DNA of 64,000 bases from a virus: the IMG/VR virus record IMGVR_UViG_3300045988_012220, positions 32,001 through 96,000 of that record. One strand, given 5' to 3'. Every line of letters starts with the position of its first letter. Position 1 is the stretch's first letter. Positions 14,827 to 63,224 of the stretch are shown here, piece after piece. Both the position numbers and the translations under genes were made by a program. The notes under the pieces are model-generated. The model did not search any database. It was not told the origin of the DNA and saw only the letters and a program-made list of their open reading frames with translations.

Positions 14827-14844
14827 TGAGACAATTAACATATT

Positions 14845-17480: not shown

Positions 17481-17494
17481 TAAACTAACGACGT

Positions 17495-19661: not shown

Positions 19662-19744
19662 GATAAGAATAATTTTAACGTGGAAAGCCCAGCTGGTTAG
19701 GTCCAGTATAATTAATTAGGGTGAGTAGAAAAAATTAATATATT

Positions 19745-36822: not shown

Positions 36823-36824
36823 TT

Positions 36825-38276
36825 ATGATAGGAATGTATGACGAACCAGTAGCGGTCCCTATTATAGACCTACTGGACAGCAATATGATGTCGTAGTACA
36901 TCAGTGCTGCAAGAGAACAATATAACTAGGCTATACAGGACCAAAAAGAGTTTGCTAAGGAATTTGGTGATCTGTATAGTCCTAGTCCAGAGCTTAATAA
37001 AGCATATTACGATTAGACTAAGGGTAGGGTAAACAAAGCTATTGACTATATGTATTAGAATGGTATAGACCCTCTTAGATCAGCAGAAGGTAGAGCATAT
37101 ATAGCTAAGATTATTAGAGAAACTCCTTATGATAAGATCTCTAAATGGAAAACAGATGCTGATAATATGAAGACATTCTAGAAGGCTGCAGCATCAATGG
37201 TAGCAGAAGGAAAACTTACCCAAGATTAGCTTAATTGGCAAATGTAGAAATATGGGTTGGATTATGATAAATTTGACCCATATACATAGAATTGGAACAC
37301 TTTGGCACCTACAAAAATGGACACTCTCGAAGATCTTACAAAGATTCCATACAGCGTACTTAAACCAAGTAATCTTACATAGAAGCAAGTTGAATCTATG
37401 GGTTACAAGTATGATCCAAAGAATGATTATACAGGTATCACAGACTAGATGATTATTGATACAGCTGGCAAAGCTATTCCGTCTGTTATGTCTACGGCTG
37501 CTGGTGAATATTATTATGATAAAGCTAAACAGTAGTTACAGTAGGCTGGTGTAACTAATCCTACAGATGACTAGATTAAGCAGCAATTATAGGGTACTGT
37601 GGCACAACTTTGGGAAGGTAAGAAGAATATAGCATGGGATCCTAACAAGTATTCATTGCTCAACTATTAGAATATACTTGCTGATTAGCTTGATGCTAAG
37701 AAGTCTGCTAGAGACCTCGCTAGTCAAAAAGCACTTTTGGATTACAAGTATGCTGATGACGTTAGAAGATCTGTTAATAATATTGGCAGTAGTTCTTCTG
37801 GAAGTAATTATAAAACTATATTTGACACTGCTAGAGAATAGCCTTATACTCCAGTATCAACATCAATAGATGATCTTAGAGCTAATGGTGTAACGCTTGC
37901 AGACCCAGATGCTCGATGGGATGAATACACGTAGTCTCAGTCGTAGGGTGATAGCAATAATAAATAGACACAATCTACCAAATAGCAGATTATTACTGTT
38001 AATGATGGACAATATGTAGCTAGATCTGGAGCATTTAGAAAATTAAATGAAGGCAGGTCTAATAGAGTAAACTATGGACTTTATAAGAAACCTGGAAGAA
38101 AGATTACAGCAACGGTAACATCTGGTCCTACATATAACAAAAAGCTTGGTAAGTATTACATTAAAGCTAATGTTGTATCAGTAAACAATAATCAATCAGC
38201 TGGAACAGTTGGACAAACAATCTGGGTTGAAGTTAAACCTGGATATATAGGAAAAGCACCTAACAAAGCAAATTAA
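36825..38276 (+). CDS. hypothetical virion/cargo protein (483 aa)
   Basis: TAATTATG junction at the start. Hand translation is open to TAA 38274-38276 and very TAG-dense. Confidence 0.7.
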
Positions 38277-38283
38277 TTAAATT

Positions 38284-41200
38284 ATGGCAAATTACAATTT
38301 ACTTAAGTCCCCAGCAGAGGACTATTTTAGAGGGTAGGCTAAAAAATTTGGTACAACATTACCAAATCAACGCAAATCCGTTCCTAATAAAAGGACTTAG
38401 GCTAATGTACCAAGTTATATATCAAGACAATCTGGTTCAAGATTAGAATCTGATATAATGCCGCATGGAGATTGGTATAAGCCTAGTCAAAAATCTATTC
38501 AGAGATAGAAAAACGCTATAGCTGAATATGACTGGAATAAACATATTGACAGCTTATACAAGCAGCAAGAAAGATCAAATAGGCAAAAGATCGATGCTCA
38601 AGACGACTCGGAAGGCTTACTTTCTGACACAGAGAAAGAGAAGCAATCTAAACTCGAAGAAGATGCCCTTCATCAGGAATATTTAAAGAGTCCGCTGCAT
38701 GCAATATTCGGTTCTATGGGTTCTCCTTTGACCGGATCTTATGATGGTCTTGGAGAAACATTATTTAATATTGGATAGAGAGCTGGTCTGTTCTCTGCTT
38801 AGTCTAGCGATCTTGGAATAGAAAGCACAAAGGGTAAGATTGCTCTCGCGCAAACAGACCAAGCTAAAGCAGATGCGTGGGCTAAACGAGAGCGATTAAA
38901 AAGAGATTTAAAATCAAAAGAAGATCAGTGGAACTATCTTAAAGCTAATCCTAAAGCTTAGGTTAAAGGTGATGCGTGGAAGGATACATATCTTCTCGGA
39001 TAGGATCTTCTTAAGACTTACGATTAGTTATAGGATAAAGACCTTAATGAATTAGCAGACGCGTACAAAGCTACATGGATGAAAGATCACACATCTATGT
39101 GGGAAGGGTTCTAGGCTGCTGTAACAAAGATGTTCGCTTCTACAAATGATACATTTGATGGTACTGGTAGATCCAAAGAACAAATGGCTAAAGATTGGCT
39201 TGATAATTATAATAAATAGTTGTCTGATAGATTCGAGAAAGCTCATCAAGGAATGAGTTTGGATCAAAAAGAGATTGAAGCTAATCAATTTAAAGCTAAA
39301 CGCGAACAGGATCTCAAGGATTATAAAGAAACTCTTGATGACCAAATGCGTAGAGCTTCTAAATGGAAGAAGTTCTGGAACGTCAGCAAACATGCTGAGA
39401 ATCTTGCAAACATACATGCTAATGATGACCTTTTAACACCAGATTATTGGTTATGGAATTTACCGCAGCAAATGGGTTCTTCTTGGTCTTCAGACACAGG
39501 TAATATTGGTAATCTTATCACAACGGCTGGTACTATTGGTTCTTTTGCTTTAGGCGCAGCTGGACATCCAGAAGCTGGTTTTGCTTTGTACAACGCCGCT
39601 AATGCAGCAGCACTCCCATTTAACTTACAAGGTGCATAGGATGAGAACTACGCTGAAATTGCTCAGCGTTGGACATAGAACTACCAATAGAATCTCAACA
39701 AATACGAAGTATAGGAAGCGTTCGGTAAAGCTTAGGGTATTTCTGCATCATATAAAGACTTGCAGAAGCAATCTGTAAAGTTCGCGATATAGAATGGTAT
39801 GTCTAAAGATGATGCTGAAAAGAGGTATGATTTAAAAACGCAGCAAGGTAAAGAAAAAGTTCTCGGAGACTATTTGATGGGCATTACTAAGAGTAACGAC
39901 CAACGTTTGTCTAAAGCTAAGCTTGGCACCACAAAGGGTCTTGAGCAGTAGTTTATGATAGATAATGCTAGAACCATGGGTACTGAAGTTGTGCAAAATG
40001 TTATATCATACGTACAGCCTGGTAATAGTCTTTCTAATCTATATCGACAAGCTGTATATAAACTTCCAACAACCAAACTTGGTGCCAAACTTGCTACAAG
40101 TAAAGCTGGTAGACTTGTAATAGGAACAGACTACGCTCTTGCTGGTCTTAACGGAGCTGTTGAAAGTAAATTTGCACAGGCTGGGCAGTATATTAATTCT
40201 CTTACAAGTACAGCTGGCAAAACTGGAGCGAAGATTGGTTCTACAACAATGGATATTCTTGGTGGTGGTGTTCTTGGACACTATGTTGGTGCTGGAGTTG
40301 GTGCTGCCGCAGGAGAAGTTGCTAGAGGAGTAAAGGGGCTTGCAAAAGAAATTATGCCTCAGGCTCTTAAAGATGCTGGCGTAATGGCTGGAGAGGCTAT
40401 ATCCAAGAAAGCTGAAGCCTTAGCAACAATGGTTGGCGCTAAAACATTAAAAAGGAAATTGTTAAAGGCGGCAGTTAAAAACCCTAACACAATGACTGTT
40501 TTAAAGATGCTCAAAAAATACGGAATTAATACTGTTAGAAGCGGATTGATAGACAGAGCATCTGAGGGTAATGAAGAAATTGTACAGCAGTTGAATGCTA
40601 ATGCTGCTGAAGAATTTGCTAAGACATATGGATACGGATCAGCCGATTTGCTTAGTCTTGCGTTCCAGGATATGGCTTATAGTAAAGAGGTGTCAGACTT
40701 CTATAAAGGTATGTTCGGCCTTGGTGAGTCTGAGCTTTACAACGATATGGAGATGTTGTCGAACTGGCGAGGCGGTTTTGCTATGGGTGGTATGCACCCT
40801 ATGGTAGCCATGAACATTTATCACGCTGTTAACGACATTAAGAATACTGTACAAGTAAAAGACGCCATAATGCATAGTGCACTTCTTGATAGAGAACAAG
40901 GAAAGATGAATAGAGCTAGTAATGCTGTCATCTCAGACCAGATCTCTAAGGGAAGATATAATTAGTTAACTACAGAAATACAGTAGCTCAGAGAAGCTGA
41001 TTTGAAGCGAGAGAGACCGCGTTTCGGTGAACAATATTGGAATGACTTACAGTCTAATGTGGAACGTATTTCTGCTCTCGTAAACAATAAATAGATTGAG
41101 CAACAATATCGCCTTAAAGGTATCAACAAAGGCACAGAGCAATACAATGTAGCTATAGCTGATAGAGCTAATATCGAGCAATAGTTAGCTGCCAATAGAA

Positions 41201-44200
41201 AAGCTCAGTAGGAAGCTGAAGTTAGGCTTCAGTAGATTTACGGACAGTAGGGTTATCAAAACCAGGTAGAATAGGCTGTAAATAGGCAGGAATAGTCAAG
41301 AGATCCTATGCTGACTGCTATAAATGCAGCTACAGCAAAGACTAAGGCTATTGAGTCTTACGTTAACAGAAAGGTAGAAGAGTATAAGAAGTCTCTTGAT
41401 ACAGCAGCTTTACCTCAAGAAGAAGTAGAAAAATCAGTAGCAAAATATAAAGAGTCAATTAAAGATGAGGCTAACGAATATGGTGAAAGATTTGTAGAAA
41501 ATTCTTAGAAGGAAGAGCACACTAGGCACGTAAATAACTTCCAGAGAAATTCTGAAGCTCACAATAGAATGAAAGCATTGCTTACACTTAAGGCTAAGAT
41601 GAACTCTATTGATGATATATTTAAGTTTGCTCACGATAAGCTTGGATTAAAGACCGTTAGACCTGATGCTAAATTGCTGTCAGCAAATATAGATAAACAA
41701 ATTTCTCGTGCAAAGCAAAGTTTGGCTAAAGCTTATAAGAATTTTGACGAGAAGTCTACCGATGAACAGACATTGCAATTCTTGAACAACTTTAGCGAAT
41801 CTATTGGATTTAATGATAATGAGATCCAGGAGCTCGAACAAGCTAAGGCCATGTATACAGCTAATGAATCATTACTTAACTCTACATTATCAATTCATAC
41901 AGAAGGTGTTACACGTGATGATAATGGTAATCTTGAGTATAATCCAGATGAGCTTAGATATCAGAGAAAGCAGGCTGAGTTAAAGTAGAAGCTTGGTGAT
42001 AAATACAAGCCAGAAGAGCATACTAGAGCTGCAGCTAAAGATGGATCAAAGAGTAAGCTTAATGAACGTATCACAAAGATTATTGATGCAAATAAACAGA
42101 ATGAAAATATCGACTGGATGTTGTCTGATATATATTCTGGAGACGCTGTAACAAAGCTTACAGAGGATTACTAGAATGATATGCTTAAAGCTGCCGAGGA
42201 AGATATAAAAGACATTAATACTCAAGCCAAATAGGCTGTAGACCCAACAGAAACTTAGCAAAAGCATGTAGCTACTACAGAGGAATTACAGAAACATGCT
42301 GAAGAATATAAGCGTCGTAGAGATAAAGCTAGAGAGCATTATAGAAAGAAGCGTAAGGCTAGAAGGAATAAAGCAAGGGTATCATTCTTACTTGGTTTTG
42401 ATGAACTCGCAATGCAGTCATTCGATGGGCTTATGGAAAACGCAAAGGTTGGCTTCTATAAGTTTGAGTAGCTCTACAATGATATAAAAACTATTCTTCA
42501 AGAAGAGACTGGATAGGATGGTGGGCCTTCGGTATTAGCTTTAGCAAAGGCGATGTATATTCGTCATTATCTTACATCTACACGTAAAGAAAAGGAGAAT
42601 ATGAATACTCCTATAGATGTACAATCTTATGGAGCACAGGTTGCCACACATGCTTCTCAAGATACATCGTTCGATGGATATAGAAAGGCTTTAAAGCGTC
42701 AATAGAATAGAGCTATTATACATTGTTTTCACACAACAATAGCATACGACGATAATGGCGCTCTACATGTATTTGAAAATATAGACGAGATAGACAGACT
42801 TGAATATCAGTCTCATTATCCAGAAATTGAGGAAAATGTAAATATCTCTGATAAATAGTAGATACTTGGATATCTTGCAGATAATACAGATAGGTTTGGG
42901 AATCAAGATTATTCTGATATAATTGATACAATATTTTCTCAGCCAAACAAAGAAGAATTATTATAGGGATTTGCGCATTATTTGGCATCAATAGATACAA
43001 CTTATTTTAATTCTCAATCTATAAGAGATGGAGAAACTATTAGAGAGCTTGCACAGGCTATAATGTTAGGAAATGACGACAGTTTTGCCGATGCACTGTT
43101 AGATAATCCGAATGGATTAGAAGATGCTAAGCAGTACGTTAAATCTGTTAGAGACAGAATGTTAAACGGCGGTCAGTATAGAGTGCTTGATACAGATATT
43201 CCTATTTATGGGTATGATGACAAAGGCAGAGCTATACAATCATAGGCAGATATTGTCCTTGTTGATAATGATGGATAGCTGCTTGTTGTAGATGTCAGGT
43301 CTTCATTTAAACCAGATCTAAAAACCAGAATGCTTGGTAATTAGAAGTCCAACGGTCGAGCTAAAGAAACAATGATCCAGCAGGAATAGAGATAGCTTCA
43401 AAGGTTAAATTAGGTTCTTTATGATACATTTGGCTCTAATATTGAAGGTACATACGTAATGCCATTCTATTACGATAGAACATCACGCGGAATTGCAGCA
43501 GAGCCTGTATTTAAAGTAGAAATGCTTGATTTTAACAAGCCTGTAACACCTTATTACAATAAGTCTAATGAAGATATATCTAATGAAGTTGTTAAACCTT
43601 TGTAGGATAAAGTAAATGAATTAAAGGAAGATTATCAGTAGTTGCTTGATAGTATCACAGAAGCTGGCGACAAGAAATACTCAGATTCTCATGCATTGCT
43701 TGATACATACAATATCTTTAAAGAAGGGTCAAATAAGGATGAATTATTGCTTCAGATGAGAGATCTTCACTCAGCTATAGAATCTATCCAGAGCTTAAAA
43801 GAAGACGCTTAGATGCGCTTAAATTAGCTCCTGTAGCCTAAATAGCACGAGAACACTGTGCCAGAATTCTACCCAGAAGATGCTTTTGATCACGTTATTG
43901 TAGATGAGCAATATTAGGCTGGTCTTGATACAGTTCACGAAATCTGTAAGAAGCTTGATACGCTATTAAGTTCTATCACGGATCTTAACATTACGACAGC
44001 AGACGAACGAGCTCAAGTTAATGAACTCATTTACTCAATATATGATGCCTAGACAGCACTTGATCAATTCTACGGCAGCGATCAGTTTAAAGTTGGTGAC
44101 ACTCTTCCGGAGCAAAAACTTATAGCAGCTGCTATTAACAAGCTCGTAAACAATAGGATGATGTACGGAGATGCTGCAAATAAGGCTTTACAAATGTGGC

Positions 44201-47200
44201 AGTCTCAATTTGCATCCAATATTGGCAATCCTAGCTTTACTTATTTCAACAAGATTAAGTCATTTCTTGCTACATTTGATGGCGAGTTTATGAATAGCCT
44301 TGTTGGTAATAAGAGCTTATAGAGATTCTGGAGTACAGTTATAAATGACTAGCTTAAGTTCTTGGCTGATAATGCAAAGAATGTACAGAAGACTAACACA
44401 GCTCTTGATAATGCGCTTACTGATACTATTTATGATGCAGAAGACTTTATTAGAGAATATAATCAGAGATTCCCTGTGGATCCAAACATTGATGATATAC
44501 TTGATGCAAACAGCGCGTAGAGTATCAACATGATTGACGATCAATGGAGAGAACTGTATAGTGATACTACTAAGCACTTCCCTGCATTCAGAGCTAAACT
44601 TGATCCACATTACTTCTCTATAGCACTTGATCCGCATTTGATTTATCCAGACGCTTCTGGGAAATCTGGTAATGCTGAGCTTATATGGAGAAATAATGAA
44701 GTATAGCTTAAGCTTACAGACTCTAAGGGAAGAACGATCTTTATGACATTTGATCAAGGTAATGATGCTGGTCCTAGAGGTGTCGATCCAGTATATTTTG
44801 CTAGAAAGAAAGCTGCAGATTCTGTGTTTGTATAGAAAGTTAAGTATATGCTCGACTTTATGAAAACGCATCCAGGATACCATATAAGCATGAAATTAAG
44901 CCGTTCTAAGGGCTCAATTAAGAACGGTGGAGAATTATAGCCTGTAAGTAAATTCTTATTCGCAGGAACGCTTAATTAGCATGATTTGTACAATATTACA
45001 TGCGATGCTGGTAATAGAATAGGTTTCCTTAAGGCTACGCAAAACGTAAACACCGGTGACGTAACGAAGATGGTATATGGTGGTCCAGAGCTGTCAACTT
45101 TAATTAGCGGATTTGATCTTGAATATGTAAAACGTACAGCTATAACACAATCTGGTAATATCGTATACTTCTACGATACTGGTCAGACTGAGAAGACTGT
45201 AGATAATAGATGCATTGGCACACCATTAATATAGCCTAAGTTTACAGCTGGCCAAGGCGGTTAGGCTAATAAGATTGCAGACCTTATATGGTATAAGTGT
45301 TATCAAGGCTTAAATGAGTATCAAGGTTATTCTATAGATGATTTACTTAAGTAGGTTCTTTATATTAAGGCTGATAATAAAGTATTAAATGAGAAATATA
45401 ACTCAATAGAAGGTCTTGTTACATTAGATCCAGCTAACAAGAGAGTTATTATAGGCAATGTCATTTACCCTACATAGAACCCTAGTGTAGACTACGCTAA
45501 TATCTATAACGCGCTGTGTAATATGTATATGACAAAAGACGCCGCATTTGTTCAGTAGAACATGCAGCAGTATATATAGTCATCACATAATAGTGTATTA
45601 GCTAAGCTTAACGCACAATATGCATCAGACCCTAATCTTGATAAAGTGGAACTTCCAAATGGTCTTACGTTTACAAGAGAAGACTTTACTCACGACGGTA
45701 AGGGTACAACTGGTCTTGGTTATATGTTGCGCAACGGTTATTTAATGTCGTACGCAGCTAAGTTGGAGCCACCTACAGTATATGTAGACAACGTAGAGCT
45801 TGTGCAAGATCATCCGGACGAAAGTGCTCAGCAAGTGTCTAAAACAGTTGCTAAACAAGATGTTCAATAGCAACAAAAGTAGGCTGAAGACACATTTATG
45901 GCTTTGTTCTACGAACAAGATTTAAGTGAGTTTTATGGACAGAAAGAAAAACCTTCGTTTGCTAACGCTGTTGATGAGTGGGTTAGAAAAACCACTGGCA
46001 TTACTCCACAATGGGTTGAAAACGAGAGGTTATCTGACGTGGCCTACAAAAAGAATAGTGCAGTACTCGCTAAATGTACAGACGCTGTTATTCAAATATC
46101 TAATTCTGTTCCTTACACTATTGGATTCCACGAAGGATTCCACAGAGCGTTAGAACTACTTGTAGAGCCATCTATTAGAGAATAGATGTATTCAGCATAC
46201 AGAAAAGCTCACCCAGAAGCTGCCACAGAAAGAGACGTGGCTGAAGGTTTAGCTGACTTATTTGTTGATTATATGCTTGGCACAAAAGATGCTAACGCCA
46301 TAAAGAAACAAGGATGGATTAAGAGAAATGTAAAGAAAGTAGCTAACAGATTAAGCATCTTATGGCATTATAGAAACAATGCTAAAACAGTTCTTACTTT
46401 GTTCAATGATATCAAGTCTGGGAAATATGCAGATAAATAGGTAAGTAAAGAACAGTAGGATAGGTTTAAAAAGCTGTTTGGCGAAGACTTGCATTATGAA
46501 ATAAATGGACGCAAATTCGATCATATAGGATCAGCTGCCGAGAAAGAGCATATGGCTAGAGCTCTTGGATATATTATAGTAAAGTCAGCTAAAGATGCTA
46601 CGGATATATATGATGCTGTACATGACTCTTCTGAACTTCCTATCAAATATATACCAATGAGAGTTATAAATAACCTTATTGGCGAGCCTGGTTCTGTTAA
46701 GCCTGTTCTGAATGGATAGTATATGTCTGTGAATTCGGTTACTCCTACACAGCAAGCGTTTAGAGAAGTGTTTTACGAAGAGTTAAACGATAAAGGTAAC
46801 ATTGTATTCCCTAATTTCTCAGCTATATCAAAAGAGGTATAGAAGTATCTTACCGAAATAATGGATGCTTATGACGGCAAATATCAGCATGATGACGATT
46901 CTGAGACAAGTGACCAGGAAGAGAATGATTATGGAAAGTCTATCGAAAGATACGATAAATCTGCATTCGAGTTCAATAAACTTGATTCTGTAAGTAAACC
47001 AGTAAAAATGTTCTTTGCCACAATACCTTACTACAAGTTTAATGATAATGGCAAACTTACACTTGATATATCTAAGAATATATATGGTATTCCTACATTT
47101 ATGCCTATTAAGTAGGTATTTAATGTAATTGTTAGCAAATTACATGATGTTAAAACACCTTTAGACTTATTAAATAGACTACAAGAGCTGTCTACGTAGA

Positions 47201-50200
47201 ATCCTATGTACATGGCGATCTATTAGAAGTATAATGATCTATACAATTCTATATATACATTTAACGACGATGATTAGCTTGAAAAGATAGACTTCGATAA
47301 AGAGGCGTTTATGATACAGATATTTACAGCTATCAAGGGTCACGAGCATAACTTTATTATTGGTAGGTCTATACGCGATAAGAATGGAGGCGTAGAAGTT
47401 AAAATATCTGATGCAAACTTCGATAGAGACGCAAGAATGTACCCTAAGCTTTGGAATTCATTCTTATCTTCTGGCCAATCTGGCTTATTATAGAGATCAG
47501 TTGGGTAGAATGGACAATTACTTCTTTCTACAAAGTATAACACAAATAATACTTAGGTAGATATGCCTACAACTGTAGCAAGAAATGCATTTAGATTTAT
47601 ATCTCAATTTTTCTCTGATTTACAGTCGTAGATACTGAATGATTCTACTAGCGAATTTAAGATAAACGGAAGAATTAGAAGCGCAGCGTCTAATAGTGAT
47701 ATCGAAGTACTTAAGGATGATATATGTAAAGAATTTAATATGCTTGGCATAAACTTTACTAAAGAAATGCTCGACCATATGCTGTCTACAAAGTATAATG
47801 GTGTTGGTAGAGAGGCTCTTAAGAAATGGATTACATCAACAGGCGTGTCTAACATTAACAGTTTTATTGATGCCGTAGGTAAAGTTGTGCAAACTAATGG
47901 TTATACAACATAGAAGGCTATAGACTAGATATTTAAGACTGGTTTTGTTAGCGAATTAGGTAACTGGGCTGGAGCTTACATGAAGATTACTACAGATAAG
48001 ATGTCTAATGGTATGGATGGTACTAAGCTGTATAATGAGTCACAGAACAATAGCATTAGCAATACTACAGAGAATCTTAATAGCCACGATAAGAATAATA
48101 TGGTAGTAAGGACTATTTTGTAGTCTAGCTACAATATCATGAACAACAATGGTGTAAATATGGGTTCTATTGTAGCAAAGCAATTACAGAACGGAGAAGA
48201 TTTCAATATTAGTATTTATACTCCTATTGGCTTTAAGTCTGATAATCGCGGTGACAATGGCTCAAAATATAGTAATCTTGCAGAAGCCGAAGATTATATC
48301 AATAAGTTCGCAATGCTTTAGAACGGATACTGTATATTCCCAACACTTGCCGACAAAGGTACATATATGGTTCTTGGTGGTATAAATATCCCAGGAATGG
48401 AGTTTGGGCAGTCAGATAATGGTGTTTATACTGTATCTGGTGCTCCGAAGATGGTATTCTTAGATAGTACGCACTATTACTTACAGCCTAATCAATCTGT
48501 ATTAAACTAGTTTATTGACTATGCTTATACAGAGCGTGAAGCTATACTTGATTGTAGAGAACAACTTGGCTTACCTGTAGATAATCCTAAAGGTTTACCA
48601 GTACTTAATGATGAAGATAAGATAATGAATTATCACATCGGTAAGAAAGGGAAATAGCCTGGCGGTATTCAGTTTAAATCACTTACAACACTTAGAGTGT
48701 ATGAAGATGGATAGATTAAACGTTACGAAATAAGCAAGATGTCTCCTGATGAATAGCTTAAAACTCTTAATGAGCAATTCTTCGACAGATCTAGAGAAGA
48801 GCAAGAATAGATAATGTCATTAACTCTTTAGGAGCAATATGAGAACGAAGTAGATAAAGCTGTTAGTCTTGGCATTGTTTCAAAGGATGAAAAGCTTGGT
48901 TATCTTGGGCTTAATAACATTAACCTCAATCAGAGCCAAATAGACGCCGTAGAACGCACTTTGTACGCTCAGATGTATAAGGATCTCACAGATAAAGGAA
49001 TAACACCTAATACGCAAAATTTGCAGCGTACAGCACATAGTATGGCTATTACTGCTATATTACAAGATGCAACGAATAGAGCTATTATTTCATCTGAGGA
49101 AAGTTTGAGATTATATATCGGTAATCCTGGGTTCTTTAAGAATGTAGAAGATATTCAGAAACGTATTGGCGGTCTTGTATCTACTGGTGATGACAACGTT
49201 ACATCTTTGTCAAATTACGACGGATCAGATGGAGAGCTTTATAGATGTGCTGAAATATCAGATTATGAAGTAGCTTCAAATGCTGATATTATGAGCGAAC
49301 TTCAAGAGAAGATGCGCGATGGTGAGCTTAGAGAAATTTATGGAAACCGTTACGGATTTAAAGGTGTTGACGATTTAGATATCGGTGCAGTAAGAGCTAG
49401 ACTTGTAGATGACTTTGGTGAAGATGCTGTTAAGAAAATAGAAACAAGAGCTAATAACTTCTATGAAGCCTATACGTGCGGCATAAATGTAGCTGATGGT
49501 GCATCTTATATTACAGCTGATATGTGTAAAAGAATGCTTAGAGCTAGAGGTGCATTAACAAACGACGTAGCTAAGGCTATTAACATTCTAGAAAGCTCTA
49601 ATAAATACTCTTGGATGGACCAGAAAGATGCATATAAACTTATATATGATAAAGTAAATCTTGTAACAACCAAGTATACCGCTTATGGATTTAGGGACCA
49701 TACAACTAATGGGAAGAAGGTTTCTAACTTAGCTGTACCATACTACAATAAGTTTGCATTGTTCCCTATATTCGATTGTATAGCTACTGGTAAGCTTAAG
49801 AATGTGTATGATAAGATGAAGGAAAGTAAGGTTGATAATCTTCTTATGACGTCTGCCGTAAAGGTTGGTCTACAAGGTCATTCTGAGTTCGATGGTAATA
49901 CTATTAGCAAGCCGCTAAATGTTTATACACAGAGACTTTCTGCGCTCCGCAGGCAGCTTAATACAGACCCAGAGGAAGGTGATGTTGTAGCAGCTGGTAC
50001 ACAGATGATTAAGGTTTGCTTGTCTAGTTTGCGACTCGATAGAATGTATGGCGATATGACTGGAGAATAGCTTAGAGATAAGCTTATGGGCTCTATCAAT
50101 AAACTTTCTAAACTTGGTGTAGATAAGTTTAAAGACAGATTCTATTCTAATGGTATTATAGACCAAAAGAAGCTTAGCGAATATCTTATAGAACAACTTG

Positions 50201-53200
50201 GTACAAGAAATGCTAATAAGAATCTTATAGACGCTCTTACGTATAATCCATAGACATGCTCAATGAATGCGCCTATTGCGTCTACTGCTGATGCAAGTTG
50301 GATGGAGTCTATGCTTATATCTGCAGCTAATAAAGATATTATTGACATCATGACTCCTGGTAGCTCATTTATTCAGAGATCAGTCTTTGCTATAGAAGGT
50401 AAAAATGGCGAAGGTAATATATAGGGACAGGAGATCTATAATGGTAAGAGATTATAGATGATAAATAAAGAGGGCTCTATGGATGCAGTAATATCTATAG
50501 ATTACTTCCAGGATATTCTTCCGAAAAACTTGTCTTACAACGAGGCTAGACAATGGCTCTTGGATCATAATATAATTGGAGAAAGTGCTACATCTAATAC
50601 GATCGGTTATCGTATTCCTACACAGGCTCAGTCATCTATACATGCTTTACGTTTTGTAGATGTTGTACCTGCTGTCAAATCCACGGTAATACTTCCAACT
50701 GAGTTTACCAAGATCACTGGTTCGGATAAACTATATCAATGTTCAAACCAGTATAATATAAAAAACTCCTTTAATTGCTGGGAACTCCATATCAAGTGGA
50801 CAATCAGCAGCCAAGCCCATTATGGGAAGGTTCAACGACTATCGAAATCATAGTATAAGAGAAACACTTATACGAAGAAGAGAGTAGAGTACACGAAAGT
50901 GGAAATGGGGAGCTTTTAGTATATGGTAATAGTATACTAATTGAAGATATAGTCTGATCTCATTGGTAACAATGAGTTAACAAAAATGTTTGATATCGAC
51001 CATCTTTATTTAGCACGTTATAACGTTAATGAGAGTGGTGGTTATGAATTTGATCCAGAAAGTGCAGAAGGATTACAGAATAGTATTATCGAAAGCATTC
51101 TTACAGTACTTAAGGATAAAAAGTCACTTAACATCTTGTATAAGTCTATCGATAATGATACTGAGCTTGTAACAAGCATAGCTGATGAAATCCCAGAACA
51201 GGGTAATACGAAGAGTGTAGCATACAACTTTGGTACATTACATGAATAGGTTACTCGTAAAAATGACTACATTACAGGTAAGACTGGTATCGGTCCATTT
51301 GCGTTGAATGTAACAAACCATATTCTTACAACATTATATGGCGTTAAATTTAAAGAGTCTAGCTTTACACAAATAACAGGTATTACTGGTTTTGATTAGA
51401 TTCTTGACGAAGATAATAATCAGATTTCATCTTGGTTATCAGCATTTATTAATGCCCACGTAGATATTGTGAAAGATCCATATATATCTAAGCTTAATGT
51501 AAACGGATTTACGTACAATATGATTAACTTGCTTGCTAGAAATGGCAAGGGTAAACAAGGTCTTTATTTCTTGTGTTAGCCTATAATTAGAGAGATGGCT
51601 AAAGCTGATATAGATACTAAGTCTCAGTTTACTAGAGATCCTAAGGTATTTAGATCTGCTTTCGAAATGAGGGATAAGAGATTAGCTGAAATATTCCCTA
51701 GCGTTACCGGTAAGACAATAGACGATTAGTATATTAAAGATGCTACAGAACTAAATAAATCTAAAGGCGAACCTGCTAGAAGGGCTGAGATAGTGAACTC
51801 TGTACTCAACAATATGGATATGCTTTAGAAGATAGCTAAGAATCCGGATTTAGTCTATGCTTAGACAGAAGAGGGAGAAAAAGCTAGAGCTTTCTAGGTT
51901 AATTGCTACATAGCATGGAAGTGCCTTGAAAAGTATTCTAATGCATTAAATAGTTTGGTACAGTACACTAAGATTGACACTCGTAAACAGGGTAAGAATT
52001 TCCTTGAAATGCAAGCTTATCTTAGAGGTTATGAGAATCTTACAAACCCAGAAACTGATTAGCTGTTTGATATGGATTCTATCAACAATCTTATACATGG
52101 TACTTGGATTGAGCAGAAAACAAGAGACGCTATTCAAGAACCCATGAGAGTTATGGCTGGACAATCATTCTAGGGTACACCTTAGTTTATGGAGTAGCTT
52201 ATCAATTTATCCGACGACTTTAAGTATAAAACAAACGACAGAGAGTCTGATTTACTTAGAAATGCTAAGACTATGAAGAAAATATCATAGGCTGCTAGTA
52301 GTTAGATTAAGGCTAGATATGCTGTTAGATTAGCTAAATCTTTAGGTATTGATATTAAAGGTTTGTTCGACGGGAATGCTACAATATTTGACAGACTTAA
52401 TTCTATATAGGCTTGCATACAGAGAGATGCATATGGTTTAGGTAGATTAAAGGATAATTATCTATTATCGCATCTCGCTCCATATATTTAGGATTAGGAT
52501 GTTTTCGTAAATGGAAAACTTACCAATAAGCCTAAATTTATAAGTGTTATTAATAGTATGGATGAAAGTAAAATGTCTGCTGATATGTTTATAGAGTCTT
52601 GGGAAGAACTTCTCAATGACCAATAGGCTAATGTAAGAAGATTTGCAAATGATCTTATATTGTATGCAATGCTTACATCTGGTGACACAAAAGGCTTTAA
52701 TAAAATAGCCAAATACATTCCTATGAGTTGGCTTGAAGTTAGACACGATGAGAGCACCGTACCATTCTCTGATTATATTAGGGAACAACTTGAGGCTCCG
52801 GAAATTGATCACGATCTTATAGCTTAGAACAACTATATGGATAGCGATTTGGTGAGCAGGGCTACATTCAAAGATTACTATTATGCTTTCAATGCTTAGT
52901 ACTCTCCTGCTGTAATAATTAGTAAGGATTCTCACGAACACGACGCTTTGTATATATCAGTACGAAATGATGGAGCGGTATATAGTGATCCAACGTCGTA
53001 CACATTGTATAAAAAGGTTGGAGAAGCTATGATTAATGGATCCAAACGTGCTGTATATGCGTTATTACCTAAGAGGGGATGGTCCGATAGAGATGGTCTT
53101 AATATATACGAAGCAGGTGATATTAATCTTAGTGTAAATGGCATTCCTATGAGTCAAGAAGTCATTGAAAGTCAGCTTGATAAACTTATGACTTACTTGA

Positions 53201-54039
53201 GCCAGATGAAGCCAAATATTACTGACGAGTAGCGCAATAACTGGATGTCGTGGTTTAATTAGATGTATTACAATGCTAATTCAGAATATCCTACAATATC
53301 ACAAGCTGTAGAGCAGCAAAGCACACAAAGTGTTAGTAATATTAATCTTGATGGCAAAGGCCCTTCTGGATAGACTGTGTACATAAGCAAATAGTTATTC
53401 TATAAAGATTAGCCTCAACAACACCCAAATGTACAGTACGTGTTCACAGATAATGCTTAGTCTTATGCTAAGGCGCAAGGTTTACCTATGCAAGGTTTTG
53501 CTAATTATAACCCAGTATTAAATGTAAGTTCTGGCGCCACTGGTACAAATCAAGCTTGCATTAGAACTGGCAGCGACGGAAAGATTACACCTAACGCGTT
53601 TGGTCTTGTAGTAAAAGTTAATCAGCAAGATGCTTCTGGCAGATGGCTTGCTAAAGATGGTTGTTTCTAGGATAATCAAGGCGACATAATGGCGTTTAAG
53701 TCGTGGGTTAACCATATGCTTGCAAGAATAGATAGAAATAAGCCAATAGTATTCCCATCATAGATAGCTCTTGGTAAAGCAGCTTTGCCTAGAGAGGCTG
53801 CAGAATGGCTTAGTTTACAATTGCTGTCAAGATTTAACATAAAATCAACAGTTTAGGAAAACACTAAAACTGGTTATACTGGCTATGGATTGTCTATAGA
53901 AGGCGTTGTGGATGATAATTATGCTAACACACTAATTAAAGAAGAGTAGTAGAAGTAGGCTTTAGCATAGATTAATCTTACTAAGGAAGATATAGAAGAA
54001 GCTGAAAGAATTAGAAAACATTGCAAAGGAGGTAAATAA
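38284..54039 (+). CDS. giant multidomain protein containing a virion-type RNA polymerase (5164 aa after intron removal)
   Basis: 18 track ORFs from 39220 to 53488 all lie in frame 1. Hand translation is open from ATG 38284 to TAA 54037-54039 apart from TAG codons and the intron. HEGFH zincin motif at 46129-46143. Beta-prime-like GYRIPTQAQSS...ALRF...ITGSD|FDIDHLY. Confidence 0.8.
50728..50988 (+). ncRNA. group I self-splicing intron (ORF-less) inside the RNAP DFDID motif
   Basis: Carries GGTTCAACGACTATC (R) and GAAGATATAGTCTGATCTCAT (S/P9, a 21-nt block identical to the capsid intron). P9 hairpin CTCATTG-GTAA-CAATGAG. The 5' exon ends in T and the intron ends in G. An in-frame TAA lies inside the insert. 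Removal restores the frame and the motif. Confidence 0.85.
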
Positions 54040-57000
54040 TGAAAGAAATATGTCCTAATTTACATAATAAACAAGTAGCCAAAGAGTTTGGTGAATTAAA
54101 AGATTTGTTCGGTGAGGATACTGCGTATTTACTCTGGAGCAAAAATAATGGATATAGTATAGATAAGGCACCAAATGGCGCCGACTCTATATTATTTGGA
54201 GAGTTGCTGAACGTTACCAATGGAGATAGAATATAGGCTCTTATATTAAAAGCCAAAGTTTATTCAAACGAATTCCTTAACTGGTTTGGTGACTGGACAT
54301 CTGAAGATAAAGAAAACGTATCTAAAGTTGTAGATAAGAATGGAGAGCCGTAGGTTACATATCACACAGTAAGCCCCGACCACTATTCTAATTTTAAGAA
54401 GTTTGACACAAATATCGAGGGGTTTAAAACAGCTATATATCATACAGATAGTATAGAGATGTCTATATCATATAATAAATATAAAGCAGAGAATTACGAA
54501 GAAATCAAAGACTATGATATAAGTACATATAATACATATGTAGAAACAGCCAACAAGGAAATATTTGAAGCATTAAACGATATTAATAAAGATGATTTTT
54601 TAGACGAACGTAATTATGATTGGTTTCTAAAAAAGAAAGAAGAATTTTTATACTATATCAAAAACAAAGAACTAGGTAAAGCTGACGATATTCTTAAATC
54701 TTTTCGTGGTTTGCTAAAACAAAATAAAGAAACATTTGTTCTTATTGGCGACCCATTTAGTGACAAAGAACCTGATTTTGATACTTTTTATCAAACGAAG
54801 CTAGATGAATTAGAGCGGAGTTTTTATACTTTATATGATGCTGAGAAGAATTATAATCCTTATTATATAGAAAGAAAACTACAAACCCAAACATTCGATT
54901 ATACTAAAATTGATTTTCTTAATATAAAGAATCCAAAAATAATTGATGCTAAAGGAAATAATTGGAACCACATTCCTGTTGGAAATAACAAGATTTTATC
55001 AACTAGAGATTTAGAGAAGTCGTATATTACAACAAATTATTCTGATGCAGAAATAGCCGATTCTAGAGCAGAACTTTATATTAGATACAAAAATAAAGAT
55101 TTCTCTAAATTCAATCTATATGGTATTACTATTAGTATAAATAAAAACGGAGATGCTAATTTTTACACAAGAGACAATGTTATTACTATAAAAGGGTATT
55201 TGGACTTAGATACAAATCAGATAAAGTAGGAATATTAGAAAAACAACATATATTTTTATAATCAGGATTTTCATCGCGATGGCGTTATTATTAATAATGT
55301 TACTGATTACGGATCTCCAGTTGGGGAGTTATTACCACATACGGTATACGAATGCATTGATAATTCTCAAGTGAAATCCGCATTTAACAATGGACAGTTT
55401 GCTAATCCAGATGACATGTATGCATCTTCTCAAGGAGAATCCAATATGGGCGCATCCTCTAGATTATCTAATATTCCTAGTAAAGGGGATATATCTATAT
55501 TGTAGCAGTATTTAAAGTCTCATAAAAGCGGTGTATCTAGTACAGCTTTAAAGCTTGTAATGACTGCTGTAAATAGATACTTTAATGATAAATAGACTGG
55601 AGTTACATACGAAATAGTAGATAACCTTCCTGGCGGAGAAGCAGCACATTATGATAGAGTTAACAAGGTTATTCGTATAAATAAGAATGCAAACTTTAGA
55701 AATGAAAGCAAATCTACTGCACCTGAAGTATAGACTATTGTTCACGAAATGCTTCATGCTGTTACAGAGTATGCGATTAGTAACGATTCTAGGATAAGGA
55801 AATCATTTACAGACCTCTACTAGAAAACAAAGAAAGTTCTTGGGAAAGATGCGTAGGACTACGGTTTGAATGATGTATATGAATTTGTAGCAGAACTTAG
55901 CAATGCGCAATTTGTAGAAAAACTAAAGTCTATACAATATAATCGTAAACAAACGCTGTTTGAAAAGATTAAACAGACTATAAAGAAAATATATTCTTAG
56001 ATATTTACAAGCTATAAAGACTTTATTGGTTCAGATAATGTGTACGAAGCTGCTGTTAACGATTTGTTTACAGTTATGTCTCACAACGAATAGAAGGAAG
56101 ACAATATAACTGATAAAGAAGCTAAAGACAGATTAGCTTCAATACAAGCTTCTGAAGACAAGGTTAATCAGATACATCATAGAATAACTGAGCTTTTCCA
56201 AGGGTTGTATAAGGACTATAAAAAATAGCTTAATAAGGGTGCCAATAGACAGCGTAGAGAAGACTAGGTGTGGTCTACAATATAGGAACTTAAGTCACAG
56301 GAAAAGAAAGAGTCTTCAAGAATAGCTATACAATCTGCTTTAAAAACTATTGGTGTGTTCGCAAGAGATCCAATTAATAATACTATTTTGCAGGCTCGTA
56401 GAGATACTATTTTAGGCTTCTTGTAGGAATGCTAGAAGAATAATTTCGATAGCCTCACAGCTGAATAGATACACGATATGAAGTCTAATATTATAGACTT
56501 CTACAACGATCTTGTCAAAACATTGTCTGATAACTAGATGGATCTGGATGCTAGAGATCAAGCTGACGTCGATACGCTTAATGCCACTGTAAGACAGATT
56601 AATCAATTATGGAAAGATGCTGCACAAATTGTAGCAGACAAAATAGTCGATGAAAATGTAGATAAATACATCAATGAATCTGAAGAAGAGAAGAATAAGA
56701 TAAAGACTGTAGCTAAAGACTGGCTTCATAAGAATGATATGTATGGAGACGAATCTAAACTTACATTATTCTTTAATTACTCTAGATAGAACAGTCCTAT
56801 TATTCGCCAAGCGTTCTAGATGATATAGGATGCTGATCAGTAGACTAGAAAAGAGTCTCTACCGGTTATGTAGTAGATAGCAAAAGCTTTTGATAAAGCT
56901 AATTCCATCATAGATGATCTTACTCCAGGAAACTGGTAGACGATGTTGATGGAAAGGTATACAGACGGTCCTAAGAAAGGAGAGTTTACAGGCTTGTTTA

Positions 57001-60000: not shown

Positions 60001-60731
60001 GAGGAGCGCATACTCAGCTTAAATGGTTTAACCAGCAGATGTTTAATCGTCAAGCCACTATTACAGATCCGGTTAAATTTAACAAAAATGAAGTAAAATC
60101 TCTTAGAGAGTTTTTGACATGGGGGCTTTGTCTAGCATTACTTTCTGTAGGATGGATGGCGTTTCATAGATATGTATAGGACGATACAAAAGATCTTAAA
60201 CCTAAGACTTATGAAGACTCTTTGCCTACTGTAAAGAACTTTATAGACTAGAAGGTTTACCTCAGACTTATAGACCAGTGTATGTTCAGAACTATTGACT
60301 CACAATTTCAGTTGTACAATGTTTATTAGTTTGTAGATATGGTTAAATCCGCAACAACTGTAACATCTGCTGTAGAGAAATTCACGGAAGTACCTACAGC
60401 TATTGCTGATGCAGCCGGATTAACAGGAAATAATCCAACCGACATTATTTCGTCTGACTCAAAGTATAAATACTTCCCACGTTGGCAAAGATCTTTAATG
60501 ACAGCCTCTGGAGTCCTTAACAATATACAAACATGGGGCTCCAGTAGAGGTAACGATAAAGTAGGTAGATGGTACTTTGACAACACAGTGACAGGTACCG
60601 TGTTTAAGATGGGTGGATATACATGGAAAGGTGGCGAAGAAAAGAAATCTAGTTCTGGTAATGTGTTTAAAATGGCTCCAATGTAGCCGATGCCAAAAAT
60701 GGCACCTATGGCACCAATGCCTGGATTTTAA
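54039..60731 (+). CDS. second giant virion/cargo protein with a zincin HExxH motif (2230 aa)
   Basis: AAGGAGG lies upstream of a TAATG start. Nine track ORFs (54039 to 60339) share frame 3. HEMLH at 55743-55757. Stop is TAA 60729-60731. Confidence 0.8.
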
Positions 60732-63204: not shown

Positions 63205-63224
63205 ATTTACTGATATTATAATAC

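What the first reader, a model, noticed from the sequence alone, without database searches (positions are those of the whole stretch)
38284..54039. A 15.8-kb single reading frame encoding a 5164-aa multidomain cargo/RNAP protein
Read with TAG as sense, and with the intron removed, there is no TAA or TGA in frame 1 from ATG 38284 to TAA 54037. The product combines coiled-coil N-terminal regions and Gly/Ala-rich glycine-zipper-like segments (about 40230-40330, GGGVLGHYVGAGVGAAAGEVARG). It also has a zincin HEGFH motif (46129-46143), the DFDID RNAP barrel (about 50600-51000) and a C-terminal domain of unknown type (about 53400-53800). In described crAss-like phages these functions are usually spread over several large genes. 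Here they appear fused, which implies either a polyprotein processed by its own zincin domain or one extremely large ejected protein.
Basis: partly seen in the sequence, partly recalled or inferred. Interest (0 to 1): 0.7.

Follow-up and report, generated by a model that had tools for sequence, protein, structure and literature searches.

The report
Giant fused crAss-phage virion RNA polymerase gene
This is a real 15.8-kb gene of a gut crAss-like phage, readable only if TAG means glutamine and a self-splicing intron is removed, and it encodes a 583-kDa virion RNA polymerase fused to its partner protein, an arrangement that is already annotated as the norm in this phage family.

Summary
From ATG 38284 to TAA 54037 the frame has 126 TAG codons and no TGA. 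Its only internal TAA (50938) lies inside a group I intron (50728-50988). Splicing restores TKITGSD|FDIDHLYLAR, identical to intron-less relatives, and gives a 5164-aa, 583-kDa product. TAG reads as glutamine.

The window is a Crassvirales phage of the family Suoliviridae. The protein is made of four parts:
- a module like crAss001 gp47, with Gly/Ala-rich segments, a degenerate RecB-like motif and a zincin-like site (H2616, E2617, H2620, E2654);
- an acidic linker;
- a virion RNA polymerase collinear with phi14:2 gp66 and crAss001 gp50;
- a divergent C-terminal domain resembling DUF7831.

The fusion is not new. RefSeq annotates single genes of 4272-6386 aa in every Suoliviridae genome I checked that holds the gene whole and uninterrupted. 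A profile search found more than 100 representative proteins of 3000-6939 aa. Published work already proposes a "huge polyprotein".

Whether the protein is cleaved cannot be decided from sequence. The zincin assignment rests on conserved motifs only. Verdict: a real feature and a new member of a known kind, of modest interest.

The parts
38284..50727 (+). Exon 1 of the giant gene (aa 1-4148). It starts at the first ATG after the upstream stop and ends with GAT (D4148, first Asp of DFDID).
   Evidence: No TAA or TGA in frame. Collinear with cr130_1 gp79 over aa 335-4942 at 34% identity.
50728..50988 (+). Group I intron of 261 nt with no endonuclease gene. It holds the in-frame TAA at 50938 and sits inside the catalytic DFDID codons.
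   Evidence: Rfam RF00028 87.1 bits. P1 pairs 11 of 12, P10 pairs 7 of 7, last base is G50988. cr131_1 has a homologous intron carrying an endonuclease gene at the same site.
50989..54039 (+). Exon 2 (aa 4149-5164 plus the TAA stop at 54037-54039).
   Evidence: cr131_1 gp48 aligns from its residue 2 to aa 4149.
39496..40392 (+). Region holding two Gly/Ala-rich, weakly hydrophobic segments that look like glycine zippers: aa 405-454 (39496-39645) and aa 644-703 (40213-40392).
   Evidence: Comparable segments lie near the N-termini of crAss001 gp47 (94-135), phi14:2 gp67 (209-239) and the Suoliviridae giants tested, cr130_1, cr272_1 and cr114_1.
42859..43527 (+). Region homologous to crAss001 gp47 residues 1637-1879 (aa 1526-1748). 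It contains a RecB-like PD-(D/E)xK motif at aa 1656-1679 (43249-43320), here with Lys replaced by Arg (DVRSS).
   Evidence: Profile of six giants against gp47, domain E 5.9e-08 in a 12-sequence search. Motif survey.
45952..46440 (+). Zincin-like domain (aa 2557-2719): HEGFH at 46129-46143 and the candidate third ligand E2654 at 46243-46245. Homologue of crAss001 gp47 residues 2095-2294 (HEAFH at 2157).
   Evidence: 44 bits, domain E 1.1e-15. H2616, E2617, H2620 and E2654 are the only invariant columns among 30 diverse homologues.
46879..46941 (+). Acidic linker of variable length (aa 2866-2886, KYQHDDDSETSDQEENDYGKS) between the gp47-like module and the polymerase module. It is a candidate hinge or cleavage region.
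   Evidence: Alignment gaps and variability. The hinge or cleavage role is an inference.
46945..53199 (+). Virion RNA polymerase module (aa about 2888-4885, interrupted by the intron). The catalytic DFDID is aa 4148-4152 (50725-50727 plus 50989-51000).
   Evidence: Profile against phi14:2 gp66, E 3.3e-46, collinear with gp66 222-2053. Against crAss001 gp50, E 5.3e-26, collinear with 286-2363. BLASTP to gp66 gives 1e-13. The matched gp66 ranges include its connector, bridge helix and trigger loop as defined.
53362..53919 (+). C-terminal domain (aa 4940-5125), a divergent relative of DUF7831. Its function is unknown.
   Evidence: Pfam PF25176 only 16.6 bits, E 0.0074, partial match. hhalign against the DUF7831 segments of cr130/131/272: 73% probability, E 3e-5. 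AF2 model pLDDT 70, pTM 0.72. The top five Foldseek hits in BFVD are DUF7831 proteins. No PDB match.
53920..54041 (+). C-terminal tail ending ...ERIRKHCKGGK. Its last codons (AAAGGAGGTAAATAATG) carry a Shine-Dalgarno sequence, and the stop overlaps the start of the next gene.
   Evidence: The tail is conserved in cr130_1 (HCKGGK), cr131_1 (YCKGGN) and cr272_1 (HCKN).
54039..60731 (+). Next gene (2230 aa). It is a separate protein of the phi14:2 gp65 type and carries the zincin motif described in the literature (HEMLH, 55743-55757). It belongs to the same transcription block but is not fused.
   Evidence: (BLASTP to gp65, 2.5e-09).

Best explanation
This is the virion RNA polymerase gene of a TAG-recoded crAss-like phage of the family Suoliviridae (nearest subfamily Oafivirinae).

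Expression needs two unusual steps.
1. All 126 in-frame TAG codons must be read as glutamine. The first is codon 18, so nothing useful is made without recoding. Because 0.99^126 is only 0.28, the reassignment must be nearly complete.
2. A 261-nt group I intron must be spliced out of the mRNA to rejoin the codons of the catalytic DFDID motif. Unspliced mRNA would run into a stop after 70 intron-encoded codons and would encode a polymerase with only the first Asp of DFDID.

The product is one 5164-aa (583 kDa) chain with four parts:
- a module like crAss001 gp47 (aa 1 to about 2860), with Gly/Ala-rich segments, a degenerate RecB-like nuclease motif and a zincin-like H-E-x-x-H...E site;
- an acidic linker;
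- a polymerase homologous to phi14:2 gp66 and crAss001 gp50;
- a DUF7831-like C-terminal domain.

By homology with gp66, gp47 and gp50, which were found in virions by mass spectrometry, the protein is made late. It would then be packed into the capsid as cargo, ejected into the host and used to transcribe the early phage genes.

My preferred reading, at about even odds, is that it acts as a covalently linked gp47-polymerase unit, which fixes a 1:1 ratio and joint packaging. In that reading the zincin-like domain does something other than cut the fusion. Shown here: the reading frame, the splice junction, TAG = Gln, the module homologies and the conservation of the fusion. Inferred: packaging, ejection, timing and the absence of processing.
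For: Open frame and statistics.

Intron and exact junction.

TAG = Gln. Residues opposite the window's TAG codons in relatives are Gln or TAG in 20% of cases, against a 4.3% background. In fragments called under the standard code that are 95% identical (P0008, P0009), the aligned TAG positions read Q in 12 of 13 cases by my count from the alignment. Metaproteomic support for crAss-like phages is in PMC9523058.

Family placement and conserved fusion. P0132, 5215 aa, aligns over aa 120-5164 at 43% identity.

Module map.

No strong Shine-Dalgarno site lies inside the gene, whereas one sits exactly at the next gene's start.

Synteny is the same as in cr130_1, with an exonuclease and an ATPase on the opposite strand downstream.

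Virion presence of the homologues and polymerase activity of gp66: bioRxiv 10.1101/2020.03.07.982082 and PMC10172136.

The HExxH domain is conserved in the unfused crAss001 gp47, so it does not exist only to cut a fusion.
Against: - No suppressor tRNA lies in the 64-kb window. The agent of recoding has not been seen, though part of the genome is outside the window.
- There are no expression, splicing or proteomic data for this phage.
- Packaging and ejection are inferred from relatives with only 22-27% identity in the polymerase core.
- The acidic linker next to a zincin-like domain is also what a self-processing polyprotein would look like.
- The published opinion is that such fusions are 'likely cleaved'.
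Confidence: 0.8

Rival explanations
1. Self-processing polyprotein. The 583-kDa precursor is cut, in the capsid or after ejection, at or near the acidic linker (aa 2866-2886) by its own zincin-like domain. This would release a gp47-like protein and a free polymerase, which might also be activated by removal of an inhibitory N-terminal part.
For: The H-E-x-x-H...E site is the only invariant feature of the domain across 30 diverse homologues. It lies directly upstream of a variable acidic linker at the module boundary. In crAss001 and phi14:2 the two modules are separate proteins. Drobysheva et al. propose cleavage and note that gp66 may need proteolysis to free its cleft. The weak profile hits in the PDB are mostly zinc proteases: FtsH and Zmp1/PPEP-1, the latter with both motif elements aligned.
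Against: The same domain is conserved at the C-terminus of the unfused crAss001 gp47, so it has a role independent of any fusion. There is no significant match to any peptidase family (Pfam; PDB E >= 0.13). The structure model was unusable at pLDDT 42. Other giant virion polymerases (the N4-type enzymes, about 3400-3500 residues; abstracts listed) are described as single proteins.
Confidence: 0.3
2. Some TAG codons act as real or partial stops. The locus would then yield a nested set of truncated products, or several proteins by re-initiation, rather than one chain.
For: No suppressor tRNA was found in the window. With 126 TAG codons, even small termination rates would strongly reduce the full-length yield (arithmetic).
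Against: Homology to relatives runs without a break across the TAG codons. TAG aligns with Gln. TAG makes up 39% of the Gln codons, at a density typical of a sense codon. There is no strong Shine-Dalgarno site and no conserved gene boundary inside the gene. Every Suoliviridae relative checked is recoded in the same way. The first TAG is codon 18, so termination would abolish the product altogether.
Confidence: 0.07
3. The long frame is an artefact: an assembly chimera or a decaying pseudogene.
For: None was found, apart from the unusual length and the internal stop.
Against: The frame is collinear with independent genomes from macaque, pig and human samples. The catalytic motifs are intact. 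The internal stop is explained by a canonical intron that is excised precisely.
Confidence: 0.02

Closest known systems
Giant RNA-polymerase proteins of Suoliviridae (delta-group crAss-like phages), e.g. cr130_1 YP_010113266.1 (5801 aa) and cr272_1 YP_010113476.1 (6386 aa)
   Same: They share the same gene position, TAG recoding and module order: Gly/Ala-rich N-terminus, HE[AG][FW]H about 1500 aa upstream of TGSDFDID, then the polymerase, then a C-terminal tail ending ...HCKGGK, followed by a gp65-like gene of about 2000 aa. The proteins are collinear at 32-34% identity over about 2700-4600 aa.
   Different: Identity is only about a third overall (57% to the nearest metagenomic representative). 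The C-terminal accessory part here is a single divergent DUF7831-like domain, where those relatives have DprA-like + NADAR + DUF7831 (plus DUF1848 in cr272_1). This genome carries an intron without an endonuclease gene in the DFDID codons. cr130_1 and cr272_1 have no intron there, and cr131_1 has the version with an endonuclease gene.
phi14:2 gp66 and crAss001 gp50, the virion RNA polymerase of crAss-like phages (structure and activity in Drobysheva et al.)
   Same: Both have the DFDID catalytic motif with Ile at the fourth position. Profile homology is collinear through the connector, bridge helix and trigger-loop regions. Both sit at the end of the late gene block.
   Different: Those enzymes are stand-alone proteins of 2180 and 2412 aa. 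Here the polymerase is the C-terminal 45% of a chain that also holds the gp47-like module and an extra C-terminal domain. Sequence identity is 22-27% in the core.
crAss001 gp47 (262.5 kDa 'RNA polymerase-associated' cargo protein)
   Same: Both have an N-terminal Gly/Ala-rich segment, a RecB-like D...D-x-K motif region and a C-terminal HEAFH...AEG zincin-like domain.
   Different: gp47 is a separate gene on the opposite strand from the polymerase gene. The window's module has about 800 extra residues between the two conserved regions, and the Lys of the nuclease motif is replaced by Arg.
Giant virion RNA polymerases of N4-like phages (about 3400-3500 aa) and the polymerase fused to the tape-measure protein of Thermus phage P23-45 (5002 aa)
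   Same: In both, one very large polypeptide combines a polymerase with ejection or structural functions, is packed in the virion and is delivered to start early transcription (abstracts listed).
   Different: The folds and lineages are unrelated. N4 has a T7-like single-subunit enzyme, and P23-45 has a two-barrel enzyme at the N-terminus of a tape-measure protein. No sequence homology to either was tested or expected.

Membership tests
crAss-like virion RNA polymerase (phi14:2 gp66 / crAss001 gp50 family) | Catalytic DFD[IV]D motif | tested here: met
   After splicing the motif reads TGSDFDIDH at aa 4145-4153, identical to cr130_1 and cr272_1. Ile at position 4, as described for all crAss-like enzymes.
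crAss-like virion RNA polymerase (phi14:2 gp66 / crAss001 gp50 family) | Collinear homology across the core (connector, bridge helix, trigger loop) | tested here: met
   A profile of six giants against gp66 gives E 3.3e-46. Its segments cover gp66 1111-1252 (1.9e-13) and 1318-1693 (5.5e-40). Against gp50 E is 5.3e-26. The gp66 element ranges are given.
crAss-like virion RNA polymerase (phi14:2 gp66 / crAss001 gp50 family) | Two double-psi beta-barrel folds in one chain | not tested
This feature is inferred only from homology to gp66.
crAss-like virion RNA polymerase (phi14:2 gp66 / crAss001 gp50 family) | Packaged in the virion, ejected, and transcribes early genes | not testable with these tools
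   Known for phi14:2 gp66. crAss001 gp47, gp49 and gp50 were found in virions by mass spectrometry.
Suoliviridae fused gp47-like/polymerase giant protein | One ORF of more than 4000 aa with HExxH about 1500 aa upstream of DFDxD, followed by a separate gp65-like gene | tested here: met
   HEGFH is at aa 2616 and DFDID at aa 4148. The same spacing is seen in cr130_1, cr272_1, cr114_1 and cr125_1. 73 of 108 giant representatives hold both an HExxH and a D[FY]DxD motif, with this spacing in those listed. The gp65-like gene follows.
Zincin (gluzincin-type) metallopeptidase | HExxH motif conserved in homologues | tested here: met
   H2616, E2617 and H2620 are invariant in 30 sequences down to 21% identity.
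Zincin (gluzincin-type) metallopeptidase | Third metal ligand (Glu) on a downstream helix | tested here: inconclusive
   E2654 (VAEGLAD) is invariant and lies 34 residues after the second His. In the weak alignment it lines up with the AEFFAES segment of Zmp1/PPEP-1. That it binds metal is not shown.
Zincin (gluzincin-type) metallopeptidase | Significant sequence or profile match to a known peptidase family | tested here: not met
   No Pfam peptidase hit. In the PDB profile search the best protease hits have E 0.13-0.56. hhalign against the gp65-type zincin region gives 53% probability.
Zincin (gluzincin-type) metallopeptidase | Zincin fold | tested here: inconclusive
   The AF2 model of the 93%-identical proxy P0001 has mean pLDDT 41.9 and is unusable.
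Group I intron | Match to the covariance model above the curated threshold | tested here: met
   RF00028 scores 87.1 bits against 50 and matches the full model length.
Group I intron | P1 with a U.G pair at the 5' splice site, terminal G, P10, and excision that restores the host gene | tested here: met
   P1 pairs 11 of 12 with U50727 opposite G. P10 pairs 7 of 7. The last base is G50988. The junction equals the intron-less homologues.
Group I intron | Self-splicing activity | not testable with these tools
   This needs in vitro transcription and splicing, or RT-PCR.
Genetic code 15 (TAG = Gln) phage | In-frame TAG in conserved genes, aligned with Gln in homologues | tested here: met
   126 TAG codons in this gene and TAG in nearly all + strand ORFs. 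Gln or TAG lies opposite them in 20% of cases against 4.3% background. 12 of 13 align to Q in near-identical fragments called under the standard code, by my count from the alignment.
Genetic code 15 (TAG = Gln) phage | Suppressor tRNA (anticodon CUA) encoded by the phage | tested here: inconclusive
   ARAGORN finds no tRNA in the 64-kb window. Relatives' genomes are 95-101 kb, so part of this genome is unseen.
DUF7831 (PF25176) | Pfam gathering score | tested here: not met
   16.6 bits against 27, partial match to profile positions 4-30.
DUF7831 (PF25176) | Profile-profile and fold similarity | tested here: inconclusive
   hhalign gives 73% probability, E 3e-5. The top five Foldseek BFVD hits are DUF7831 proteins with TM 0.34-0.66. 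However, the alignment used to build the model contained DUF7831 members, which biases the model towards that fold.

The most novel reading that the evidence does not exclude
The zincin-like domain at the end of the gp47-like module would be an active protease that cuts the 583-kDa chain at the adjacent acidic linker, or removes the polymerase's inhibitory N-terminal part, only after ejection. The phage would then deliver a latent polymerase that switches itself on inside the host. Production of an active enzyme would also depend on near-complete TAG recoding and on splicing of an intron lodged in the catalytic codons.
Probability: 0.2. Interest if true: 0.6.

Novelty: new member of a known kind. 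Interest (0 to 1): 0.28.

Why it matters
The gene is a clear worked example of three layered expression requirements in one phage gene. These are stop-codon recoding at 126 sites, ribozyme splicing inside an active-site motif, and translation of a 583-kDa chain. It also gives a precise module map linking the fused Suoliviridae protein to the separately encoded gp47 and gp50 of crAss001.

Three practical points follow.
- Standard-code gene callers shatter this gene, and RefSeq splits the cr131_1 homologue at the intron.
- The need to read 126 TAG codons sets a demanding lower bound on recoding efficiency.
- The invariant H-E-x-x-H...E site offers a testable handle on the open question of how crAss-like virion polymerases are activated.

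None of this changes the known picture of crAss-like phages.

Tried and rejected
- Pfam and PHROGs scans of the whole protein in three tiles gave nothing useful. A sequence search of aa 1801-5164 against the PDB gave nothing.
- A megablast of the locus against GenBank phages gave one trivial 122-nt hit, so no near-identical genome is in that collection.
- A homologue search with the protein failed twice: the full length exceeded the size limit, and aa 1-4930 timed out.
I used the near-identical proxies P0001 and P0008 instead.
- The zincin-region model was too poor to search with, at pLDDT 42.
- The C-terminal domain model found nothing in the PDB (best E 0.47).
- The N-terminal tile aa 335-914 hit only the three closest relatives. 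A profile search found no reliable match of the first 1500 aa to crAss001 gp45/gp46 or phi14:2 gp67-gp69. I treat the weak gp45 hit (E 0.4) as compositional.
- Rfam placed the P1 helix and the 3' end slightly wrong (50691-50976). An alternative splice at 50700|50977, which is also in frame, was considered. It was rejected because it would give MFDID and would not match the intron-less homologues.
- A crude heptad test did not support extensive coiled coils.
Full report
**1. The observation**

Frame 1 from 38284 to 54039 holds 5252 codons. It has many TAG codons, no TGA, one internal TAA at 50938 and the terminal TAA at 54037. When only TAA and TGA count as stops, the whole + strand of the window resolves into long ORFs. 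These include 38281-50940 and 50941-54039 in the same frame, followed by 54036-60731.

Rfam finds a group I intron at 50691-50976 (87.1 bits, gathering score 50), and this stretch contains the stray TAA. After removal of 50728-50988 the CDS has 5164 sense codons, 126 TAG and no internal TAA or TGA. The other two frames carry 169 and 614 TAA+TGA. The chance of such an open frame by base composition is about 10^-130.

**2. The splice junction**

The Rfam alignment places P1 and the 3' end slightly wrong. The 3' end of exon 1, ACUGGUUCGGAU (50716-50727), pairs with intron 50741-50752 at 11 of 12 positions, and U50727 lies opposite G. Exon 2 bases 50990-50996 pair 7 of 7 with intron 50733-50739, which forms P10. 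The intron ends with G50988.

The spliced product reads TKITGSD|FDIDHLYLAR. The intron-less relatives cr130_1 and cr272_1 read TKITGSDFDIDHLYLA[ST].

cr131_1 carries a homologous intron at the same site, and it begins with almost the same sequence. That copy holds a 242-aa endonuclease-like ORF. RefSeq therefore splits the cr131_1 gene into gp50, gp49 and gp48, and the reconstructed product is 5735 aa.

**3. TAG is glutamine**

In alignments with six relatives, the residues opposite the window's TAG codons are Gln or TAG in 84 of 423 cases (20%). The background is 4.3%. The next most common residues are E, K, N and D.

Two fragments called under the standard code are 92-95% identical to the C-terminus (P0008, P0009). 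By my count from the alignment, the 13 aligned TAG positions read Q in 12 cases.

TAG supplies 39% of the Gln codons of the gene. Metaproteomics has shown TAG = Gln in crAss-like phages (PMC9523058).

No tRNA is encoded in the window, so the agent of recoding has not been seen. The opposite-strand exonuclease and ATPase genes and a few + strand genes are free of TAG. This fits the known split between genes read in the standard code and late genes read in the recoded one.

**4. What phage this is, and whether the fusion is new**

A tblastn search with the polymerase region finds 137 phage records, all crAss-like. The best are cr130_1 (56% identity), cr131_1 and cr272_1, which belong to Suoliviridae, subfamily Oafivirinae.

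| Genome | Annotated homologue |
|---|---|
| cr272_1 | 6386 aa, single CDS |
| cr130_1 | 5801 aa, single CDS |
| cr125_1 | 4502 aa, single CDS |
| cr114_1 | 4272 aa, single CDS |

In all four, the homologue is recoded with TAG and is followed by a second large gene of about 1600-2300 aa. Oppositely oriented exonuclease and ATPase genes lie downstream. The window has the same layout. The giant aligns collinearly with cr130_1 gp79 over aa 335-4942 at 34% identity.

A profile of the HExxH region was searched against 1.84 billion representative proteins. It found 775 hits at E <= 0.001. Of the best 149, 108 are at least 3000 aa long, 40 are at least 5000 aa and the longest is 6939 aa. The nearest are P0130 and P0131 (57% identity) and the full-length P0132 (5215 aa, 43% identity over aa 120-5164).

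The literature already covers this. A review speaks of polymerase genes 'up to ~6000 aa' as a hallmark of these phages (PMC10136315). [quoted passage not shown] The fusion is therefore known.

**5. Module map**

A profile built from six giants was searched against the proteins of the cultured phages.

| Giant (aa) | Match | Support |
|---|---|---|
| 2888-4885 | phi14:2 gp66 222-2053, collinear | E 3.3e-46; includes 1111-1252 and 1318-1693, which cover the connector, DFDID, bridge helix and trigger loop defined |
| 2888-4885 | crAss001 gp50 286-2363 | E 5.3e-26 |
| 1526-1748 | crAss001 gp47 1637-1879 | domain E 5.9e-08 |
| 2557-2719 | crAss001 gp47 2095-2294 | 44 bits |

These E-values are for a 12-sequence search.

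The next ORF (54039-60731) matches phi14:2 gp65 around its HEIMH motif. Its relatives in cr114_1 match crAss001 gp49.

Gly/Ala-rich segments lie near the N-termini of gp47, of phi14:2 gp67 and of the Suoliviridae giants tested.

So the giant corresponds to a gp47-like module followed by the polymerase, and gp65/gp49 remains a separate gene. An acidic linker of variable length (aa 2866-2886) lies at the module boundary.

**6. The zincin claim**

HE[AG][FW]H is conserved in the five Suoliviridae relatives that hold this part of the gene (cr124_1 is cut by the linearisation of its record) and in crAss001 gp47 (HEAFH at 2157). Among 30 diverse homologues, down to 21% identity, the only invariant columns are H2616, E2617, H2620 and E2654. 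That is the pattern expected of a gluzincin site.

The supporting tests were weak or negative:
- Pfam gives no peptidase family.
- The PDB profile search gives only sub-threshold hits (E 0.13-0.56). Most are zinc proteases: FtsH, and Zmp1/PPEP-1 with both motif elements aligned.
- hhalign against the gp65-type zincin region gives 53% probability.
- The AF2 model has pLDDT 42 and is unusable.

The domain is best called zincin-like: plausible but unproven. It is not the zincin of the literature, which sits in the next gene. Its presence in the unfused gp47 means that it does not by itself argue for self-processing of the fusion.

**7. The C-terminal domain**

Close homologues are rare: three proteins, two of them near-identical. 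The conserved motifs Y[VI]FT[DE]N, TNQAxIRT and NAFG resemble those of the DUF7831 modules in the tails of cr130_1, cr131_1 and cr272_1. Those tails also carry DprA-like and NADAR domains.

- hhalign gives 73% probability.
- Pfam scores below threshold.
- An AF2 model (pLDDT 70, pTM 0.72) has no PDB neighbour.
- Its best neighbours in BFVD are DUF7831 proteins of phages and giant viruses. The alignment used for the model included DUF7831 members, which biases this result.

The function is unknown. The final residues ...HCKGGK are conserved among Oafivirinae. Their codons overlap an AGGAGGT Shine-Dalgarno site for the next gene, whose ATG overlaps the TAA. No strong Shine-Dalgarno site lies anywhere inside the giant gene.

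**8. How it most likely works**

The gene is expressed late, under recoding, and only after splicing. The product is then packed as capsid cargo, ejected, and used to transcribe the early genes, as shown for phi14:2 gp66.

Reading 126 TAG codons requires per-codon efficiency above about 99% for a useful yield. Unspliced mRNA would run into a stop after 70 intron-encoded codons and would encode a polymerase with only the first Asp of DFDID.

Cleavage and an intact giant remain open alternatives. I lean slightly towards the intact giant.

**9. Verdict**

It is an already recognised type, so I class it as a new member of a known kind, of modest interest.

Noticed in passing
window 14839-16076: A second group I intron (15855-16076, Rfam 93.2 bits) interrupts the major head protein gene. 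The TAG-free ORF 14839-15864 matches only positions 5-334 of the 495-position major head protein profile. The rest of the gene must lie downstream of the intron.
   Followed up: partly
window 50725-51000; proteins P0130-P0277; L002 15900-16830: The DFDID catalytic codons are a hot spot for insertions in this protein family. 29 of 36 giant representatives that lack the motif end within about 90 residues after TGSD|, TGSDF| or TGSDFD|, which points to at least three neighbouring insertion points. Several begin with the same intron-encoded reading (KLYQCSNQYNIKN) as the window. RefSeq splits the cr131_1 gene at this intron into gp50, gp49 and gp48.
   Followed up: partly
window 43249-43320 (aa 1656-1679): The gp47-like module holds a RecB-like PD-(D/E)xK nuclease motif. 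Of the 34 family members where the motif pattern was found, 25 read ...IIDFKTS and crAss001 gp47 reads DVKTS. This phage and its closest relatives have DVRSS, and other near relatives have further non-Lys residues, so the nuclease may be inactive in this clade.
   Followed up: partly
window 54026-54041: The last codons of the giant gene (AAA GGA GGT AAA TAA) form an AGGAGGT Shine-Dalgarno site 5 nt upstream of the next gene's ATG, and that ATG overlaps the stop (TAATG). The conserved C-terminal peptide ...HCKGGK may therefore be under a double constraint. Strong sites of this kind also precede the starts at 10925, 18966 and 23249, but none lies inside the giant gene.
   Followed up: partly
window 54039-60731 (HEMLH at 55743-55757): The downstream 2230-aa gene carries the gp65-type zincin motif (HEMLH ... 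YEFVAELSN). This is the zincin described in the literature. The transcription block therefore encodes two different HExxH domains, which are only weakly similar to each other (hhalign 53%).
   Followed up: partly
loci L001 (cr130_1), L002 (cr131_1), L003 (cr272_1): C-terminal tails of the giant proteins: The C-terminal tails of the giant proteins are a variable accessory region. In cr130_1, cr131_1 and cr272_1 Pfam finds NADAR and DUF7831, with a weak DprA-like hit and DUF1848 in cr272_1; cr130_1 is annotated DprA-like. The window has only a divergent DUF7831-like domain. cr114_1, cr125_1 and cr124_1 have no recognisable domain. This suggests swappable payload domains delivered together with the polymerase.
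   Followed up: partly
window 1-64000: TAG use is uneven. Nearly all + strand late ORFs contain TAG, up to 126 in one gene. The head protein exon, ORFs 17489-18211 and 19739-20869, and the opposite-strand exonuclease (61277-62344) and ATPase (62317-63267) genes have none. No tRNA gene is present in the window.
   Followed up: partly
window 29370-34037: This ORF of about 1555 aa upstream of the block matches the crAss001 muzzle protein gp44 (phmmer 3.5e-14). The three ORFs between it and the giant gene (34016-38276) therefore sit where crAss001 encodes its cargo proteins gp45 and gp46. No sequence similarity to those two was tested directly.
   Followed up: no
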